Shown here one piece after another: positions 16,322 through 59,364 of a stretch of DNA of 64,000 bases; position 1 is the stretch's first letter, and every line of letters begins with the position of its first letter. The stretch is from Eledone cirrhosa. Lineage: Eukaryota. The position numbers and the translations under genes are program-made. A model generated the notes under the pieces. That model was given only the letters and a program-made list of their open reading frames with translations, was not told where the DNA came from and did not search any database. The DNA lies in the NCBI GenBank assembly GCA_964016885.1, contig OZ024747.1, forward strand, positions 46,996,001 to 47,060,000, written 5' to 3'.

Positions 16322-16735
16322 ACATAGATCTGTTGAATATGCATACCAATTATAACACATATATATCCTAGAAACGATCGTTAAATAATGAACTTTTTTT
16401 GTTTAATATAAGGAATTGTTTATTCATTAATTGTTTAATATTTTATCTTGACTCTGTATACCGTTTATCTTTCACCGAAAGTGGTTTTTCATTACATCTC
16501 TTCTTTCCATGATATCCGGAATACATTGAGTTCTTCATACGGATTGGACACTACCGTAAACTCTTGGTAGATTTATCTACATAATTTTGCTCCTATTTTC
16601 ACGGAAATATTCGTATTTTTGTACTGTATGTGTGTATTAATTTTATATTTATGTATAAACATATATATATGTATGATTTTGTAAACCCATATACATTTAG
16701 TTGAGCTCTTTCAATTGTCCATCATCCATATCACA

Positions 16736-19177
16736 ATGGAAAAACAATATTTAGGAACCTCCTTGAAAAACATACCAATACCTTCTAAGGACGACTTCTT
16801 ACTCCTTATGATTCAGAAAACTAATAATTTTATCAGAAGGGTTAGATGGAGAGCCTACCACTTCGATAGAAAATCTAAACAAGCAGATCGGAAATATATG
16901 TATGATTTTAATACTTACAAGAATCCACCACACAACTTTTTACTTGAAGACTTCGAGAAAGACCTTTTTAATTTAATTAAACACCTCAAATTTAAAAAGT
17001 ATAAATCCGTCTTTCAAAAGGACCTTGATTCTACCCTATTGGACCTAAAAAAGTCTAAAAAAATCCATGTCCACTCGGACAAAACTGGTAACTTGTATCA
17101 TATGGATATTGAACATTATAACGAGTTCATATATAAAGAACTCAGAAAAAATTATAAAAAATCTAATAATGTGTCACTCACCAACATCAACAACAAAACA
17201 CACAACATAGTAAAAAAACTAAACATTGAAGATAGAACTGAACCTTTGGCATTGAAAAGACCACACTTCAACCTGAAAGATCACAAATCTAACTTTAACT
17301 CAAATCCTTCTATTAGACTTATTTGTCCCTCCAAATCAGATATTGGAATAATTAGCAAAAAAATTTTAGATAGAGTCATCCCACAAATAAGAAAACACGT
17401 TATTTTACCACTCTGGGAAAACACCTCCCAGGTAATTAACTGGTTTAAAAATATTAGGTGTAAATCTTCTGCTTCTTTCCTACAATTTGATATAGATAAT
17501 TACTATTCTTCTATATCACCTATACTCCTGAACAAAGCATTGATATTTGCTAAAAATAGATCTAACTTAACTTTGGATGACATTAACATTATTACACATG
17601 CTAGACTAACACTTATTGAATTTCAGAATGAATACTGGACCAGAAACACATACAGTAATCTTTTTGATATTACTATGGGTTCAAGCGATTCCGCCCAAAT
17701 TACTGATCTTGTGGGCCTCTTTCTCCTTTTCAACATAAATGCCTCTTTTCCCCACCTCAAAGGTGGTTTATATCGTGATGACTGTCTTCTTCTTTCTAAC
17801 AACCTTAGCCTTTCAGAAATCGAAAAAAACAAAAAACATATTAGAACTTTCCTTAAAGACTATTATAATCTTAATATTACTTTTGAAAAAACAAGTAAAG
17901 TAGTAAATTTCCTAGATATAACTTTAGATTTAGCTACGGGTATCTACCAACCTTACCATAAACCTAACCAAAACTTACATTACATACACTCACAATCTAA
18001 TCACCCTAAATCTATCCTTAAAAACCTTGCATATAATATATCACTTAGAATTTCTAACCTTTCTTCTAACCAAGATGTATTTGATAAAAATGCGACCTTC
18101 TATAACGAAGCTCTAGATAGAAGTGGCCACAAAAATAGATTAGAGTATATACCTTCTACTAAAAATACTGAAAGCATACAACATAATATTACCAACAAAC
18201 ACCAAATGAAAAGTACACACCTAAATGCCACCCACACTATACCCCAAAATACTAAATCTTCTAATATAAAGTATAGTAACTCTCAAAAAACTACTCATCA
18301 TACAACTATAATAAATATTAATAATAAAACTCCTAATAAAAAAGATAAAACACATAAATCTACAAATATAACTAAAAATAGTTGTGGTGAGATCATTAAC
18401 ATTAATCCTCCTAGTAAAAATCACGATACAACCTATAAAAATAATAAAAATAATAAACAACATAGAAACCGTAATAGACGAGTTACTTGGTATAATGCTC
18501 CTTTTAATTTACAAGTTAAGGATAATATTGCTAAAAAATTTTTTTATATCCTTGAGAAAAACTTCCCGCCAAACCACAAATACCATCAAATCTTAAATAG
18601 GTCTACAGTTAAATTCTCATACTCTACAACAAATAACATAAAACAAAATATAAGTGCATATAATGCATATAAATGTAAGAAAACCATAAGTATACCACCA
18701 GTACATCAAATTAACCATAATATCTCCTCAAATACAAAATTAACGAAAGGATGTAACTGTAGAAACAAAGCAAACTGCCCATTAAAAGGGAATTGTCTTG
18801 TTAACAACATAGTCTATAAATGTAATGTTAAAACTAAAGATTCTATTTGCTCATATATAGGAGCTACCTCTAACAATTTTAAGACAAGGTTTAATACCCA
18901 CAAGCATAGTTTTAAAAATGCCGCACTGGCTAATACAACATCTCTAGCAGAAAAAATCAATAGTTATAAAAATAAGAATATAAAATATGATTTGACCTGG
19001 AGTGTGCTCAAAAGAGCCACCCCTTATCAAAATAATAGAAATGAATGTAGATTATGCTCCCAAGAACTATTTGAAATAATGAAGTCTAAGGATATCTTAT
19101 TAAATAAACGACAGGAATTAATTATATCGTGTAATCATAAACTAAAAAAAACATTTAAATATTATAAACCTAATTAA
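16736..19177 (+). CDS. PLE reverse transcriptase + C-terminal GIY-YIG endonuclease (813 aa from first ATG)
   Basis: RT motifs FLQFDIDNYYSSI, ITMGSSDSAQITDLVGL, GGLYRDD, VNFLDITL. Linker CNCRNKANCPLKGNC (CxCx5C). GIY-YIG: NIVYKC...YIGATSNNFKTRFNTHKHSF...CRLCSQE...LLNKRQE..SCNH. No stops. Confidence 0.95.
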   Translation: MEKQYLGTSLKNIPIPSKDDFLLLMIQKTNNFIRRVRWRAYHFDRKSKQADRKYMYDFNTYKNPPHNFLLEDFEKDLFNLIKHLKFKKYKSVFQKDLDSTLLDLKKSKKIHVHSDKTGNLYHMDIEHYNEFIYKELRKNYKKSNNVSLTNINNKTHNIVKKLNIEDRTEPLALKRPHFNLKDHKSNFNSNPSIRLICPSKSDIGIISKKILDRVIPQIRKHVILPLWENTSQVINWFKNIRCKSSASFLQFDIDNYYSSISPILLNKALIFAKNRSNLTLDDINIITHARLTLIEFQNEYWTRNTYSNLFDITMGSSDSAQITDLVGLFLLFNINASFPHLKGGLYRDDCLLLSNNLSLSEIEKNKKHIRTFLKDYYNLNITFEKTSKVVNFLDITLDLATGIYQPYHKPNQNLHYIHSQSNHPKSILKNLAYNISLRISNLSSNQDVFDKNATFYNEALDRSGHKNRLEYIPSTKNTESIQHNITNKHQMKSTHLNATHTIPQNTKSSNIKYSNSQKTTHHTTIININNKTPNKKDKTHKSTNITKNSCGEIININPPSKNHDTTYKNNKNNKQHRNRNRRVTWYNAPFNLQVKDNIAKKFFYILEKNFPPNHKYHQILNRSTVKFSYSTTNNIKQNISAYNAYKCKKTISIPPVHQINHNISSNTKLTKGCNCRNKANCPLKGNCLVNNIVYKCNVKTKDSICSYIGATSNNFKTRFNTHKHSFKNAALANTTSLAEKINSYKNKNIKYDLTWSVLKRATPYQNNRNECRLCSQELFEIMKSKDILLNKRQELIISCNHKLKKTFKYYKPN

Positions 19178-22702: not shown

Positions 22703-22857
22703 TTCATTATTTCTGAAGACGGCGTATATATGTGTTTGGTATGTATATTTAATCTTGATAATTTGTATAATTTTGTATAATTTTGTACATAGATCTGTTG
22801 AATATGCATACCAATTATAACACATATATATCCTAGAAACGATCGTTAAATAATGAA
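22703..22857 (+). ncRNA. Hammerhead ribozyme with 116-nt stem II in the PLE 3' pLTR
   Basis: ttcattattt-CTGAAGA-[long hairpin tatatatgtgtt..tggtatgtatatttaa / ttgaatatgcatacca..aacacatatata]-GAAA-cgatcg-TT-aaataatgaa. Perfect 10-bp stem I and palindromic stem III. Confidence 0.8.
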
Positions 22858-22908: not shown

Positions 22909-26034
<3,126 letters not shown>

Positions 26035-28187
26035 ATTTGGATTTAATGCTCTGAAATAGCGATATATATGTGAAGACAAACATAGAATATTCGAAAATAT
26101 TCTGTATGTTTATAATAAACATTTTGAAGACCTAATCGCTATAGAATAGAATACGTCACGTATTACAATTTGAGATTCTCGATAAAAGCAAGGAAGTAAC
26201 CTACGCGTTTCATTCTTATTTGAAATCATCAGGATTACATATCCAATGCTTTTATCGAGAATGACACAGCTAGAGACTTATAGAATACTTAGCTGTGTAC
26301 AGGAACTGGTTTGAAAGAGCTGTTGCCGGTCCGGCAGAAATTAGAATTTGGATTTAATGCTCTGAAATAGCGATATATATGTGAAGACAAACATAGAATA
26401 TTCGAAAATATTCTGTATGTTTATAATAAACATTTTGAAGACCTAATCGCTATAGAATAGAATACGTCACGTATTACAATTTGAGATTCTCGATAAAAGC
26501 AAGGGAAGTAACCTACGCGTTTCATTCTTATTTGAAATCATCAGGATTACATATCCAATGCTTTTATCGAGAATGACACAGCTAGAGACTTATAGAATAC
26601 TTAGCTGTGTACAGGAACTGGTTTGAAAGAGCGGTTGCCGGTCCGGCAGAAATTAGAATTTGGATTTAATGCTCTGAAATAGCGATATATGTGTGAAGAC
26701 AAACATAGAATATTCAAAAATATTCTGTATGTTTATAATAAACATTTTGAAGACCTAATCGCTATAGAATAGAATACGTCACGTATTACAATTTGAGATT
26801 CTCGATAAAAGCAAGGGAAGTAACCTACGCGTTTCATTCTTATTTGAAATCATCAGGATTACATATCCAATGCTTTTATCGAGAATGACACAGCTAGAGA
26901 CTTATAGAATACTTAGCTGTATACAGGAACTGGTTTGAAAGAGCGGTTGCCGATCCGGCAGAAATTAGAATTTGGATTTAATGCTCTGAAATAGCGATAT
27001 ATATGTGAAGACAAACCTAGAATATTCGAAAATATTCTGTATGTTTATAATAAACATTTTGAAGACCTAATCGCTATAGAATAGAATACGTCACGTATTA
27101 CAATTTGAGATTCTCGATAAAAGCAAGGGAAGTAACCTACGCGTTTCATTCTTATTTGAAATCATCAGGATTACATATCCAATGCTTTTATCGAGAATGA
27201 CACAGCTAGAGACTTATAGAATACTTAGCTGTGTACAGGAACTGGTTTGAAAGAGCGGTTGCCGGTCCGGCAGAAATTAGAATTTGGATTTAATGCTCTG
27301 AAATAGCGATATATATGTGAAGACAAACATAGAATATTCGAAAATATTCTGTATGTTTATAATAAACATTTTGAAGACCTAAAGCATTGGATATGTAATC
27401 CTGATGATTTCAAATAAGAATGAAACGCGTAGGTTACTTCCCTTGCTTTTATCGAGAATCTCAATTGTAATACGTGACGTATTCTATTCTATAGCGATTA
27501 GGTCTTCAAAATGTTTATTATAAACATACAGAATATTTTCGAATATTCTATGTTTGTCTTCACATATATATCGCTATTTCAGAGCATTAAATCCAAATTC
27601 TAATTTCTGCAGGACCGGCAACCGCTCTTTCAAACCAATTCCTGTACACAGCTAAGTATTCTATAAGTCTCTAGCTGTGTCATTCTCGATAAAAGCATTG
27701 GATATGTAATCCTGATGATTTCAAATAAGATTGAAACGCGTAGGTTACTTCTCTTGCTTTTATCGAGAATCTCAAATTGTAATACGTGACGTATTCTATT
27801 CTATAGCGATTAGGTCTTCAAAATGTTTATTATAAACATACAGAATATTTTCGAATATTCTATGTTTGTCTTCACATATATATCGCTATTTCAGAGCATT
27901 AAATCCAAATTCTAATTTCTGCCGGACCGGCAACCGCTCTTTCAAACCAATTCCTGTACACAGCTAAGTATTCTATAAGTCTCTAGCTGTGTCATTCTCG
28001 ATAAAAGCATTGGATATGTAATCCTGATGATTTCAAATAAGAATGAAACGCGTAGGTTACTTCCCTTGCTTTTATCGAGAATCTCAAATTGTAATACGTG
28101 ACGTATTCTATTCTATAGCGATTAGGTCTTCAAAATGTTTATTATAAACATACAGAATATTTTCGAATATTCTATGTTTGTCTTCAT
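26035..28187. mobile_element. Retrozyme-like tandem array: 312-bp unit, one hammerhead per unit, inversion at ~27381
   Basis: ggatttaatgct recurs at 26039, 26350, 26662, 26974 and 27286; inverted units start at 27381, 27692 and 28004. HHR gtaatc-CTGATGA-tttcaaataagaat-GAAA-cgcg-TA-ggttac lies at 26196, 26508, 26820, 27132 (-) and 27395, 27706, 28018 (+). Confidence 0.9.
27395..27437 (+). ncRNA. Minimal type I hammerhead ribozyme (representative array copy)
   Basis: Stem I gtaatc/ggttac, core CUGAUGA and GAAA, stem II ttc/gaa, palindromic stem III ACGCGT, GUA cleavage triplet. Confidence 0.9.
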
Positions 28188-28216
28188 ATGTATATATATA
28201 TATATATGTATATATG

Positions 28217-28269
<53 letters not shown>

Positions 28270-28312
28270 GTATATATGTATATATAATATATGTATATAT
28301 ATATAATATATG

Positions 28313-28370
<58 letters not shown>

Positions 28371-28406
28371 TGTATATATATGTATATATATATGTATATA
28401 TATATG

Positions 28407-28460
<54 letters not shown>

Positions 28461-28464
28461 CATG

Positions 28465-28515
<51 letters not shown>

Positions 28516-28606
28516 ATATATATGTATATATATATATGTATATATATATGTATATATATATATGTATATATATATATATGTATATATATATGTACATATA
28601 TATATG

Positions 28607-28656
<50 letters not shown>

Positions 28657-28700
<44 letters not shown>

Positions 28701-28949
28701 TGTAACCACTTCTATATATACATATATATATATAGATGTGAGATGTCAGAAAAACCACAGACCCTCCATCTCAATTCTACTTTTGAAAAGGAGAAGAACA
28801 GCGAAACCGGTAATGGAACCAAATAAATGTATATATTTTTTTAAAAATAAGACTCCAGTTGCATTTTCGATTTCATCTTTTTTTCTTTATACTTTCACTC
28901 GTGTAGGACACCTCGGTTATTTTTCATTTTGTAAAAAAACCTCACTTTG

Positions 28950-30114: not shown

Positions 30115-30396
30115 CACACACATATATATATATATATACACATATATGTAACCACTTCTATATATACATATATATATATAGATGTGAGATGTCAGAAAAA
30201 CCACAGACCCTCCATCTCAATTCTACTTTTGAAAAGGAGAAGAACAGCGAAACCGGTAATGGAACCAAATAAATATATATATTTTTTTAAAAATAAGACT
30301 CCAGTTGCATTTTCGATTTCATTTTTTTTTCTTTATACTTTCACTCGTGTAGGACACCTCGGTTATTTTTCATTTTGTAAAAAAAACCTCACTTTG

Positions 30397-30400
<4 letters not shown>
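28657..30400 (+). repeat. Duplicated ~290-bp island (28657-28955 and 30113-30400) separated by ~1.15 kb of (TA)n
   Basis: Near-identical sequence in both copies; each contains an HHR 3' half, GAAA-ccgg-TA-atgga, without CUGANGA. Confidence 0.85.
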
Positions 30401-30466
<66 letters not shown>

Positions 30467-30470
<4 letters not shown>

Positions 30471-33090
30471 GGGTGTGTATGATTGTGTATAGAAGATTAT
30501 ATTAATAAAAGGAATTCCAACTTTGTCTGATTTACTTGTTTTATTTACAATCCTTTAAAATTATAATGGTATTATAATGAAATAGCATGGTAGAATATTA
30601 AATGTTAAGTGTTAATTGAACAATTACTTTCATGCTTTCGCAATCTTCAGGTTCATATTCAGTGGTGACAGTCAAGTTTGCAATTTTCAACTGTAATAAG
30701 ATGGGTAAATTCTGTGCCTTATATACAGTAAAAAGGGGCTACAGAATGCTAAGTTTTGCAAACTGTATTTTGCTATTTTTAGAAATGATGAAAATAGCAT
30801 TTTCTATGGTTTTATAAAACATCTTCAGTAATCATCACCATCAACATCACTTTTATTATTATTATTGTTGTTGTTGTTGTTAGTGGTGGTAGTCGACATG
30901 GTCGTAGTCATAGTAGGAGTAATACCCCTAAGCATTATTATTGTTCATTTAGCTTGGATTGGAATTTATTAATAAAATTCTTTTCTTTAATTTTTCTCTT
31001 GATTTTACTTCGGATGTGTAGTTTGTAGAATGGAAATATTATAAATATTTTCCGACTACATGTTGCTAGATGGTTACTCAGGGGTATCTGACCGACATTT
31101 GGGTCTCTGATTTGCTGTCGGTGCACCCGTACACGTCTCGATAGTGCATTTCCAGTTTGGCTGACATATAGTTCTTCACAATTCGGGCATTTAATGCAGT
31201 AAATTAGATTTCTGCTTTTGCAGTTCATATTTGCATTTGGGAATATTTTTCCAGTTTTTGTGTTCATATATTCACCAGTGTGTATGGATTGACATGTGCC
31301 ACATCAGCTATCATCACATTTAGATACAGTGAATGATTGGTCTTTGTTGTTAAGGTCAAACTTTGCCTTTGTTAGTAATTGCTTCAAAATTTTCGGCTGT
31401 CTTTTACTAAGAGTCAAAGATCGATCTGTGATTAAGCCTTTTAATTCATTACTTTGAGCAATGATCAGTAGGTTTGCTTTGGCAGTGTTGAAGATATTCT
31501 GGTGGCATGTGTTGTGTGTCATTATAAATGGTATGACCATTTCTTGGTTTCTTCTTCCTTGGGTTGTCCTAAGTTGTTGTATAGGTATTTTTATAGCCCG
31601 CTGTATGCCATTTTCTATAAGTAGAGATGGGTATTTTTGTTTGAGCAAAAATTCTCTCAGTTCTGTTAGGCGTTTGTTCCTGGTATTGGTATCTTCTACA
31701 ATGGTACAAATTCTTCTGGCTAAGCAGTATGGGATGTTGCGTTTTGTATGAGGTGGATGGCACGACTTAAAATTCAGATATCGATGGGTGTCTGTGTGTT
31801 TATAGAATATATCCGTGGTAATGGTGGTGTCGTTTTTGATTACCATTATATCTAGGAATGGTAATTTGGTCCTACTCATCTCTTTTGTGAATTGGAGAGA
31901 TGGGTGTAGGTTATTCAGGAGGATATTGAACTCATCCAGAGTATCTAGAAATTCTGTCCAGATGATGAAACAGTCGTCAGGGTATCTCTTCCAAGATTTT
32001 TCAATGTACTTTCTAAAGTCAGTGCTATATTTTTGCTCTATTTCTTGGTAGAGTTGTTGTTCTAAGTATCCCATTACAGAGTTCGCGTAAACGGGAGAAA
32101 ACTTCGTTCGTATCGCTGTGCCTCTAATTTGGATGTAATTCTCTCCATTGAAGAAGAAAGTGTTGTTTTCCAGAATAAGTTTGACTGCGTCTAATATAAA
32201 TGGCGCTGTGAATCTGGTGGGAATCAATTCTCTATGTTTTCCACTCAGTATTTAACCACCTTTATTCTAAATCATGTGTAATGTTGGTGTAAAGGCTTAC
32301 CACATCAAAACTAAGTAGAAGTGAATTCGTTTCCGTGGTTTTGGGAAGATGGGACAGGAAGTCGATATCATCCCGGATGAAACTGGGTATGTGAATACAT
32401 AGTGGTTTCAAAATAATGTCAACAAAATTGCTTAGGGCATGTTGGACCAGCTATAATAGGTCTAAGTTTTAAGTCTTTTGGGTGTAGTAATTTAATGTAC
32501 TCACTGTTTTGTTCTTTTACTGCTAGTTGTATTTCTTTTGACTTATGAACTTTCAGTAGGCCTTACAGGTTGCTGGGTTTTGGCTCAAAATTGGTGATGT
32601 AGTCTCTTTCCTTATCAGTAAGTGAGGTATGGTATTTTGAAGCCAGGTTGTTGATCTTCTTCATGATGTTGTGGTCTATATTTGACGGTATTTCATGATA
32701 GAATGTTGTGTCTTTCAGTTGTTCCTCAACCAAATCTTTGTACTATTCAGCATCCATTATAACAACTGCACCCCCTTTATCTGCTTGTTTAATTATTATT
32801 GTTTTATCATTTTGTATACGTTTAAGTGCAGACATTTCCGATTTGTTAATGTTTGGCCTAACATTAGTATTACGTCTAAGAGGAAATTTAGACAGGATAT
32901 AAATGTATTGGTCGAGATAGATATTTCTTCCTTTTGGCGGAGTGAAATTTGATTTATTCTTTACTAGTGATTCATCACTCTCATTACTTTTATCAGCGAA
33001 GAATTCTACAAGTCGTAATTTACGACAGAATTCTGGGGTATCCTCCTTCAGTTCTTGGTGGTTGACTGTTGGAGATGGCGTGAATTTCAG
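30467..33090 (-). pseudogene. Decayed 5'-truncated Penelope-like element (Neptune-like)
   Basis: Fragments: LKFTPSP..FCRKLRL, IIKQADKGGAVV, LLSFDVVSLYTNI, YIQIRGTA..FSPVYAN, RYPDD (damaged motif C), FLDI, HPPHTKRNIPY, KCDDS*CGTC, NLIYCIKCPNC..YVSQT..LSRR..H. Frameshifts and one in-frame TGA. The 3' UTR carries an HHR and ends in (TA)n. Confidence 0.9.
30616..30656 (-). ncRNA. Hammerhead ribozyme in PLE 3' end (stem III palindrome mutated)
   Basis: atgaac-CTGAAGA-ttgcgaaagcat-GAAA-gtaa-TT-gttcaa; an intact version lies at 44532-44572. Confidence 0.75.
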
Positions 33091-47397: not shown

Positions 47398-47599
47398 TGA
47401 GAGTTGGAGGAAGAATGAGGTTCCATGTTCAGGTAAAAGGGAAACCGGTGTGTATATGGGGTGGGGTGTAAGTCGGTGTGTTCATATATATATATATATA
47501 TATATTCAATATAGAAATGACTTCTACGGGACTAGATCGGGAGAAATCATCATTTATACTCTGCTATGTATTGAGCACCCTACTTACTGTGGTTACCCC

Positions 47600-47693
<94 letters not shown>

Positions 47694-58929: not shown

Positions 58930-59262
58930 CTTTTAATATAGATGAGATTCTACAGGACTAGAACTGTTTCATTCTTTAGAAATCATCAGGAATATAAATT
59001 ATAGCCTTAAAGAATTAGCTTTTGAATTCCCCTTTCTTTCAACCAATGACCTCCACCCATCCCGTTCCCCTACCCTCTCCTACCACCTGAAAAGATATAA
59101 ATACCACAACATTTATTTTTGGAAAGCCAGATTCCTGATGATTGCTAAAGAATGAAACAGTTCTAGTCCTGTAGAATATCACCTATATTAAAATTGTTAT
59201 ACTCTGGTATGCATTGAGTACCTTACTTACTGTGGTTACCTCCGATTCAACCCGGAATAACT
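58930..59262. mobile_element. PLE-type 3'-end island (family C) with two divergent hammerheads (58947-58993 -, 59131-59177 +)
   Basis: attc-CTGATGA-tt(t/g)ctaaagaat-GAAA-cag-ttctagtc-ctg-TA-gaat on each strand. Fragments also lie at 37682-37780, 37936-37990, 47510-47600 and 62575-62815. Confidence 0.85.
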
Positions 59263-59265
59263 TAG

Positions 59266-59364
<99 letters not shown>

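What the first reader, a model, noticed from the sequence alone, without database searches (positions are those of the whole stretch)
26035..28187. Retrozyme-like array: 312-nt, highly structured, self-cleaving non-coding unit (candidate circular-RNA retroelement)
Seen: about 4.3 + 2.6 near-identical copies of a 312-bp unit, each with one minimal type I hammerhead (gtaatc-CUGAUGA-uuuc/gaau-GAAA-cgcg-UA-gguuac). All six frames of the unit contain stops, so it is non-coding even as a circle. The rest of the unit is largely helices: a 16-bp perfect stem attctcgataaaagca/tgcttttatcgagaat clamping the HHR, plus acacagcta/tagctgtgt, aaacat(ac)agaatatt hairpin, aatacgt/acgtatt, tagcgat/atcgcta and tgccgg/ccggca. 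Established: tandem 150-400 bp HHR repeats (non-LTR retrozymes) in several animals yield monomeric circular RNAs and are thought to use PLE proteins, and palindromic stem III allows dimeric folding. Inference: this is a young, viroid-like branched circRNA family, possibly undescribed in this lineage, copied by rolling-circle reverse transcription into a (TA)n tract.
Basis: partly seen in the sequence, partly recalled or inferred. Interest (0 to 1): 0.9.

Follow-up and report, generated by a model that had tools for sequence, protein, structure and literature searches.

The report
Two-armed ribozyme repeat with Penelope footprint
This is one of well over a thousand back-to-back genomic insertions of a small, protein-free repeat that carries a self-cutting RNA motif; it is a known kind of element, and its fixed ends and near-identical units suggest that a borrowed Penelope-type enzyme likely copied a small RNA circle round and round from both sides of a DNA break, a route long proposed but not yet shown.

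Summary
The 312-bp hammerhead repeat is real and non-coding, but it is not one tandem array: 4.3 units lie on the minus strand and 2.6 on the plus strand, head-to-head, with 3' ends pointing out into (TA)n. The family has at least 14,243 hammerhead copies in about 1,700 insertions. The two outer ends are fixed and 35-36 nt apart; 38 of 38 head-to-head insertions on a 94-Mb stretch use one of each. That is the published 'inverted copy plus tail' footprint of Penelope-like elements (PLEs), and young PLEs in this genome show it too. Inherited variants are fixed in all units of arrays up to 28 units long, hammerhead cut sites are read through, and the fold covaries across families 56-63% identical. 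Best reading: a non-LTR retrozyme inserted by two-ended PLE priming, likely on a circular monomer. Not shown: cleavage, the RNA circle, the donor PLE. Against: this window's arms differ at one site, and a few arrays show multi-unit patterns. The scan found the same family and reading before on other DNA of this genome.

The parts
26035..27382 (-). Left arm, 4.32 units; 3' end outward at unit phase 214 (tail end), 5' end truncated at phase 114
27381..28186 (+). Right arm, 2.58 units; 5' end truncated at phase 308, 3' end outward at phase 178 (non-tail end); both units covering phase 254 carry A where all four left-arm units carry G
27381..27382 (.). Head-to-head junction of the two 5'-truncated arms, 2-nt microhomology
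26035..26070 (-). 36-nt 'tail' (phase 179-214): present at the left outer end, absent at the right; inferred stretch between two reverse-transcription start sites
   Evidence: PMC11167929
27395..27437 (+). Type I hammerhead, predicted cut after 27431; helix I 6 bp, helix II 3 bp plus U.U, palindromic helix III
27706..27748 (+). Type I hammerhead with a private change in helix II, predicted cut after 27742
28018..28060 (+). Type I hammerhead, predicted cut after 28054
27132..27174 (-). Type I hammerhead (minus strand)
26820..26862 (-). Type I hammerhead (minus strand)
26508..26550 (-). Type I hammerhead (minus strand)
26196..26238 (-). Type I hammerhead (minus strand)
27682..27770 (+). Example of the 16-bp stem (27682-27697 with 27755-27770) enclosing a hammerhead; covaries across families
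27803..27956 (+). Example of the region (phase 107-260) best conserved in sequence between young and old families; holds both outer-end sites; inferred enzyme-binding region
22909..26034 (.). (TA)n-rich target tract, left flank
28187..28700 (.). (TA)n-rich target tract, right flank

Best explanation
This is a two-armed, head-to-head insertion of a non-coding 312-nt hammerhead repeat (a non-LTR retrozyme) in a (TA)n tract, likely made by a borrowed Penelope-like reverse transcriptase-endonuclease that primed from both ends of the cut DNA, most likely on a circular one-unit RNA. Steps: (1) an array is transcribed, neighbouring hammerheads pair through the palindromic helix III and cut out monomers, which a host ligase closes (inferred from published retrozymes; not tested). 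(2) A PLE protein binds the conserved region at phase 107-260 and nicks both strands of (TA)n (inferred; target preference shown). (3) One DNA end starts copying at phase 214, the other at phase 178 (ends shown; priming inferred from the published in vitro PLE). (4) Each copies round the circle through the hammerhead cut site many times (read-through and clonal units shown; circle inferred). (5) The two cDNA ends are joined in the middle by 0-5 nt microhomology (junctions shown). I put PLE mobilisation at about 0.9 and the circular monomer template at about 0.7.
For: Architecture: 30 of 39 loci taken from the best hits are minus-then-plus; the script classed 27 of 30 as tail + non-tail, two more are so by eye (L053 has an inner third piece, L065 a mutated end), one is atypical (L036), none has two equal outer ends. 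Unbiased test: 51 non-tail and 53 tail junctions in C1 0-94 Mb give 40 neighbour pairs within 12 kb; 38 are head-to-head and all 38 are mixed, P 3.6e-12; the other 2 are neighbours from separate insertions. Genome-wide 1,678 non-tail junctions and 904 tail junctions on the forward strand alone (reverse count inflated by the gap pattern). PLE footprint in print: inverted 5'-truncated copy and a 30-40 bp tail at one end (PMC8557442 passages; PMC3846280 passages); two internal start sites that define the tail, both strands nicked and extended (PMC11167929 main text). Same footprint in this genome's PLEs: 8 of 8 fetched family-B elements have one tail and one non-tail end (picked for paired ORFs, not for ends); two ends also in families A, C-F and H. 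Enzyme supply: about 80 of 150 scored family-B copies and 150 of 150 family-H copies are identical (rounded) over 217 aa, many in long open frames. Monomer bottleneck: in 38 loci of the 310-nt type (350 units) 73 locus-sites carry a variant in every unit (19 distinct variants, 7 seen in one locus only), 8 in some units, 64 in one unit; in the 312 set 38 fixed, 11 partial, 114 single. Both arms agree at 58 of 58 such sites in 36 two-arm 310 loci. Arms reach 27 units. Template is not cut at the hammerhead: 173 cut sites read through, 0 of 78 inner ends at the cut (1.8 expected), 1 of 74 in a partly overlapping set. Selection on the RNA: 23 of 76 predicted pairs change on both sides among 11 units of families 56-63% identical, against 3-5 for slid controls, with C3-G8 swapped to U3-A8 in the core (variant published in PMC4209133); inherited substitutions break the fold in 3 of 16 cases, single-unit ones in 20 of 39, P 0.025. 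Double hammerhead -12.3 kcal/mol against +7.2 for two monomers. Readable target duplications of 11-15 bp at a few loci such as L036 and L143.
Against: No cleavage, RNA or circle was observed. The published PLE starts internally on uncleaved linear RNA and needs no hammerhead cut, so fixed ends and read-through do not need a circle. In this window the arms differ at phase 254 (A in 2 of 2 right units, G in 4 of 4 left); in 27 two-arm 312 loci 4 sites in 3 loci disagree against 27 that agree. Multi-unit patterns exist: L229 repeats two private changes 7 units apart, L226 and L230 repeat changes in distant units, and 7 runs of adjacent units share a change in the 312 set. Single-unit changes shared between loci are slightly above chance: 12 against 7.2 +/- 2.7, P 0.069. 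Arm lengths correlate only weakly (rho 0.32, P 0.057, 37 loci), so a locked enzyme pair is not shown. No sampled PLE terminal repeat is homologous to the unit; tail lengths of the two youngest PLEs (about 55 and 135 nt, read by eye) differ from 35-36. The active hammerhead fold is not the lowest-energy fold (monomer -7.4, pair -16.7 for other folds). Only 1 of 9 Xenopus retrozyme dimers cleaved in vitro (10.64898/2026.07.22.740005). The covariation count uses a structure derived from the same alignment and includes near-duplicate rows. Target duplications are unreadable or uninformative at most of 70 loci.
Confidence: 0.65

Rival explanations
1. Same PLE-driven two-ended insertion, but the template is an uncleaved linear (or multi-unit circular) transcript of a homogeneous source array; the monomer circle, if made, is a side product.
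For: Internal initiation on uncleaved RNA is shown for a PLE in vitro. The 7-unit periodic changes in L229 and repeated changes in L226 and L230, arm-specific changes in 3 loci including this window, shared single-unit changes slightly above chance.
Against: A new change arises in one unit; to be fixed in all 19-28 units of an array (L045, L226, L229) it must pass through one unit. 19 and 11 distinct fixed variants in samples of 38 and 39 loci mean that this happens often. Linear copying can only shorten arrays, yet the youngest are the longest.
Confidence: 0.2
2. PLE machinery inserted short arms, which later grew by DNA-level tandem duplication and homogenisation, as satellites do (the local amplification proposed by Li et al. 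2026).
For: Seven runs of adjacent units share a private change in the older 312 set; the idea is in print.
Against: The youngest loci (0.06% single-unit changes) average 9.2 units, the older 312 set 4.4 (the sets were picked differently), and the oldest families mostly show 1-2 units in 30 loci. Single-unit changes outnumber adjacent runs by more than ten to one.
Confidence: 0.07
3. The enzyme copies hammerhead-cut linear monomers and jumps from the 5' end of one to the 3' end of the next.
For: Would give multimers from monomers without a ligase and could mix units, explaining partial patterns.
Against: No pile-up of inner ends at the cut; the variant list of 170 units shows no insertion or deletion at the cut site; arrays are clonal rather than mixtures.
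Confidence: 0.05
4. The second arm is a fold-back (self-primed) DNA copy of the first, as once proposed for PLE palindromes, or the palindrome is an assembly artefact.
For: Self-priming proposed in PMC3846280; a few junctions use the 16-bp stem as overlap.
Against: Inner ends of the two arms lie at unrelated phases, either arm can be the longer one, the outer ends differ by a fixed 35-36 nt, and single-unit changes are rarely mirrored. Short-read contigs of run X1 show (TA)n loose ends at both end sites.
Confidence: 0.03

Closest known systems
Metazoan non-LTR retrozymes (Cervera and de la Pena 2020, PMC7229834: parts 2-4 of 6 read, supplement too large to read; review PMC7761336: passages; Li, Clavereau and Pollet 2026, 10.64898/2026.07.22.740005: parts 1-3 of 5 read)
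   Same: Tandem non-coding units of about 310 nt, GC about 33%, one type I hammerhead per unit with a weak palindromic helix III (a U.U at the base of helix II as in axolotl HHR_Amex2), highly paired circle fold, thousands of copies, PLEs in the same genome.
   Different: Those texts describe head-to-tail repeats only: 'inverted' and 'tail' occur 0 times in PMC7229834 and only in a reference title in Li et al.; 'retrozyme' with 'head-to-head' finds 0 papers. Here almost every insertion has two inverted arms with one tail and one non-tail end. PMC7761336 says the repeats show no motif pointing to the mobilising element; here a conserved region holds two fixed ends. Circles and cleavage are shown there, not here.
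Endonuclease-bearing Penelope-like elements, Neptune and Hydra clades (PMC8557442: passages and section 11; PMC3846280: passages; PMC11167929: parts 1-2 of 4)
   Same: Partial tandems, inverted 5'-truncated copy joined head-to-head, 30-40 nt tail at one end, (TA)n target, hammerhead about 130-170 nt upstream of the 3' ends.
   Different: No ORF; no sequence homology to the terminal repeats of the seven or eight PLE families sampled here; up to 27 whole units per arm.
Non-autonomous Chlamys elements such as MRC1 of Chlamydomonas (passage in PMC8557442)
   Same: Non-autonomous PLE passengers with multicopy head-to-tail insertions.
   Different: Those resemble their autonomous partner at the 3' end and most Chlamys lack hammerheads.
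Hammerhead viroids and newt satellite 2 (recalled, and as described in PMC7229834 and PMC4209133)
   Same: Size, branched fold, double-hammerhead cleavage through a palindromic helix III.
   Different: Hammerhead in one polarity only, copies live in DNA, no sign of RNA-to-RNA replication or infectivity.

Membership tests
Non-LTR retrozyme | Tandem non-coding units of 150-450 bp, GC under 50%, no LTR/PBS/PPT | tested here: met
   312 bp, GC about 0.33, stops in six frames; PBS and PPT were not searched for, no LTR in the build
Non-LTR retrozyme | One type I hammerhead per unit with intact core | tested here: met
   7 of 7 cores intact, covariation across families; Rfam only sub-threshold
Non-LTR retrozyme | Dispersed multicopy family, co-occurring with PLEs | tested here: met
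Non-LTR retrozyme | Self-cleavage (as monomer or dimer) | not testable with these tools
   energy only: dimer favoured over monomer, other folds lower still
Non-LTR retrozyme | Accumulation as circular RNA | tested here: inconclusive
   only assembled contigs of runs of unrecorded kind were available; a closed-loop contig cannot tell a circle from tandem DNA
PLE-mobilised non-autonomous element | Inverted 5'-truncated copy and tail at one end only | tested here: met
   38 of 38 pairs; 40 of 40 loci chosen by end pairs or hammerhead hits
PLE-mobilised non-autonomous element | Microsatellite target as for Neptune/Hydra | tested here: met
   (TA)n at nearly all of 70 two-arm loci
PLE-mobilised non-autonomous element | Sequence shared with the terminal repeat of an autonomous partner | tested here: not met
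   no significant match in 50 GIY-YIG loci, 18 family-B loci and 21 family-H loci; only 150 of 10,596 candidates were scored, so other families may exist
Autonomous PLE | RT and GIY-YIG ORF within the unit | tested here: not met
Hammerhead viroid / viroid-like replicon | Ribozyme in both polarities and RNA-to-RNA replication | tested here: not met
   hammerhead on one strand of the unit only; replication not testable here

The most novel reading that the evidence does not exclude
Each insertion is the fossil of one RNA circle copied by rolling-circle reverse transcription from both ends of a break by a Penelope-type enzyme pair that starts at two sites 36 nt apart, so the family descends through a single-circle bottleneck at nearly every generation and is selected on its RNA fold and ribozyme; this would be direct genomic evidence for the proposed retrozyme life cycle and a minimal 310-nt substrate that explains how PLEs make their inverted, tailed insertions.
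Probability: 0.45. Interest if true: 0.78.

Novelty: new member of a known kind. Interest (0 to 1): 0.57.

Why it matters
Retrozyme papers propose, but do not show, that PLE enzymes copy RNA circles into tandem DNA, and the origin of PLE inverted structures and the role of their hammerheads are stated open questions (PMC8557442). This family gives about 1,700 young natural products with a strict rule (one tail end plus one non-tail end), clonal units and two young candidate enzymes with intact frames in the same genome. That makes the question testable with a 310-nt RNA, a (TA)n target and a purified protein. The element itself is an ordinary member of a published class, and this window's copy belongs to an older, minor subfamily.

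Tried and rejected
Rfam at gathering score: nothing; the bicoid_3 hit (E 0.0018) was rejected as a chance fit to an AT-rich hairpin. Sequencing runs: no RNA holder listed. Runs X4, X5 and X6 each gave one contig of unit length plus 30 (342, 340, 340), the form of a closed loop in an assembly graph, which tandem DNA gives as well. The PLE-B stretch laid on the same runs was covered in X1 and partly in X6, with nothing laid in X4 and X5; depth is no copy number and a blank proves nothing, so this was not used as evidence. Search for the donor PLE: GIY-YIG screen, exclusion patterns, BLAST and a profile of the retrozyme families against PLE loci found other retrozyme families but no homologous terminal repeat. 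Likeness of the tail end to family C and of the non-tail region to family B (81% over 26 nt, E 0.11) is AT-rich and not significant; family C is also older. One chimera of a family-B arm with an old retrozyme arm (L177) could be a later insertion with deletion. A short ORF in the unit (about 30 codons, seen by eye) is not kept in the old families. The dimer energy had a misplaced helix and was redone. Target-site duplication in this window cannot be read inside the microsatellite. The host lineage was not determined; octopus and cephalopod were only a guess used in one paper search, which listed no paper on cephalopod retrozymes. PMC5785218 is not held. Supplements of PMC7229834 (too large) and of the bioRxiv preprint (closed) were not seen and could show inverted retrozyme loci; PMC4209133 does mention pairs of hammerheads 100-700 bp apart on opposite strands for truncated PLEs.

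Full report
Observation. Taking the hammerhead strand as the RNA, the 5' ends meet in the middle with a 2-nt overlap and the 3' ends point outward into (TA)n. With phase 1 at 27697, the hammerhead core lies at 16-22 and 37-46, the predicted cut follows phase 46, the left arm ends at phase 214 and the right arm at phase 178. All seven hammerheads have intact cores. The unit has stops in all six frames and folds far better than shuffles. Rfam gives only a sub-threshold hammerhead match.

Family. The window lies in a 3.0-Gb genome. A DNA search gave 221 matches from 40 scored of 483 candidates; I fetched 38 other loci. A core pattern matches 14,243 times against 0 for the control; this is a lower bound, since 9 of 38 sampled loci carry a change at the variable core position N7 that the pattern excludes. 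The dominant subfamilies are 310-311 nt and 94-95% identical to this unit; this window's 312-nt subfamily is minor and older (0.2% single-unit changes against 0.06%). An older superfamily of 313-324 nt units shares the end region (5,421 matches).

Architecture. Of 39 loci, 30 are minus-then-plus; the other 9 show one arm or a second arm too short for the script. Outer ends fall in two classes 35-36 nt apart. The script called 27 of 30 tail plus non-tail; two more are so by eye and one is atypical. As an independent test I listed junctions of each end class with (TA)n and paired the first 51 and 53 on contig C1: 38 of 40 close pairs are head-to-head and all 38 are mixed (P 3.6e-12), median span 2.3 kb. 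Junction counts (1,678 non-tail; 904 tail on one strand) suggest about 1,700-1,800 insertions. Inner ends are spread over the unit (chi-square P 0.057) and mostly joined by 0-5 nt of overlap.

Link to Penelope-like elements. An inverted 5'-truncated copy and a 30-40 bp tail at one end are PLE hallmarks (PMC8557442, passages; PMC3846280, passages). A purified PLE nicks and extends both strands of AT-rich DNA and starts at two internal RNA sites that bound the tail; hammerhead cleavage was not needed (PMC11167929, parts 1-2 of 4). This genome holds many RT plus GIY-YIG elements, at least six families with the Neptune-type zinc-finger linker (clade assigned from motifs, no tree) and a Hydra-type family with the RWK-like, DKT and CxCx5C motifs. 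All show two alternative ends; 8 of 8 family-B elements have one of each. Families B (0.18% pairwise divergence) and H are young with many open frames and are the likely enzyme donors by age. No sampled PLE end is homologous to the unit, so the donor is unnamed.

Template. A variant that arises in one unit can fill a whole array only by passing through one unit. In 38 loci of the 310 type (350 units, 30 newly fetched by their end pairs plus 10 earlier loci, two of the 40 typed as 312) 73 locus-sites are fixed in every unit, counted against one natural reference unit, 8 are partial and 64 single; both arms agree at 58 of 58 sites. In the 312 set (170 units) the figures are 38, 11 and 114, with L045 carrying a private change in 19 of 19 units. 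Cut sites are read through 173 times with no pile-up of inner ends there. This favours a closed monomer. Against it: this window's arms differ at phase 254, as do arms of L044 and L060; L229 repeats two changes at a 7-unit spacing; single-unit changes shared between loci are 12 against 7.2 expected (P 0.069); arm lengths correlate weakly. Some insertions may therefore use two molecules, multi-unit templates or later DNA duplication.

Selection on the RNA. Among 11 units from young and old families, 23 of 76 predicted pairs change on both sides (3-5 in slid controls), covering the long clamp stem and hammerhead helices I-III, and the core switches between C3-G8 and U3-A8, a variant already published (PMC4209133, passages). 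The structure came from the same alignment and some rows are near-duplicates, so the count leans upward. Within the young family, inherited substitutions break the fold or core in 3 of 16 cases against 20 of 39 for single-unit ones (P 0.025). Helix III has room for one pair in a monomer; the double hammerhead scores -12.3 kcal/mol against +7.2 for two monomers, though other folds are lower still. The window's subfamily has a weakened helix II.

Comparison and novelty. It meets every testable feature of non-LTR retrozymes (PMC7229834, parts 2-4 of 6), whose circular template and PLE partner are proposed in print. The two-armed tailed build and clonal-array argument were not found in the searches made; subscription papers and the supplements named under Tried and rejected were not seen. 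My reading was fixed before I opened the scan's notes, which show that other agents reached the same reading on other loci of this genome; that is not independent support.

Verdict. A real, young-family retrozyme insertion with a PLE footprint; new member of a known kind. PLE mobilisation about 0.9, circular monomer template about 0.7, whole mechanism 0.65. Interest 0.57: ordinary class, but an unusually clean handle on an open mechanism.

Noticed in passing
window:14983-22909 (+): Hydra-type PLE: open 830-aa frame at 16685-19177, a diverged partial frame upstream, a hammerhead with a very long helix II near 22710-22850, and a 3' end at the start of the (TA)n tract that holds the array. Very young family; its two ends are about 135 nt apart and its unit is about 6.7 kb, longer than the <3 kb given for Hydra.
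   Followed up: partly
window:28741-28952, 30187-30399, 30417-32835: Two 3' ends of Neptune-type family A and a 5'-truncated family-B copy (minus) flank the array: the tract is a nest of PLE-made insertions.
   Followed up: partly
L214-L221 (family B): Two overlapping frames (476 and 775 aa) with a U UUU UUA site at the overlap in 14 of 14 copies: likely -1 frameshift.
   Followed up: partly
L177:1792-2102 and adjoining retrozyme arm: One insertion made of a family-B arm joined head-to-head to an old-family retrozyme arm: possible template switch naming family B as donor; single case.
   Followed up: partly
L144, L160, L162 terminal repeats; window 28770-28815: Neptune-type families A, D and F carry hammerhead-like motifs with a U3-A8 core and a palindromic helix III.
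   Followed up: no
window:62570-62860, 59150-59302, 47561-47648; L153:8500-8710: Another short, very common head-to-head element in (TA)n whose hammerhead core and helix II resemble this unit's.
   Followed up: no
L154:8568 and 9079; window 8806 (-): A further hammerhead repeat with a 511-bp period, weakly matched by the retrozyme profile (E 0.003).
   Followed up: no
L038:3909-4150: A retrozyme arm runs directly into (TTAGGG)n-like repeats at an internal site.
   Followed up: no
L229: Two private changes recur exactly 7 units apart in a 19-unit arm: multi-unit template or block duplication.
   Followed up: no
runs X4, X5, X6: Three runs labelled with other organisms each hold one closed-loop contig of the unit; kind of run unknown.
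   Followed up: partly
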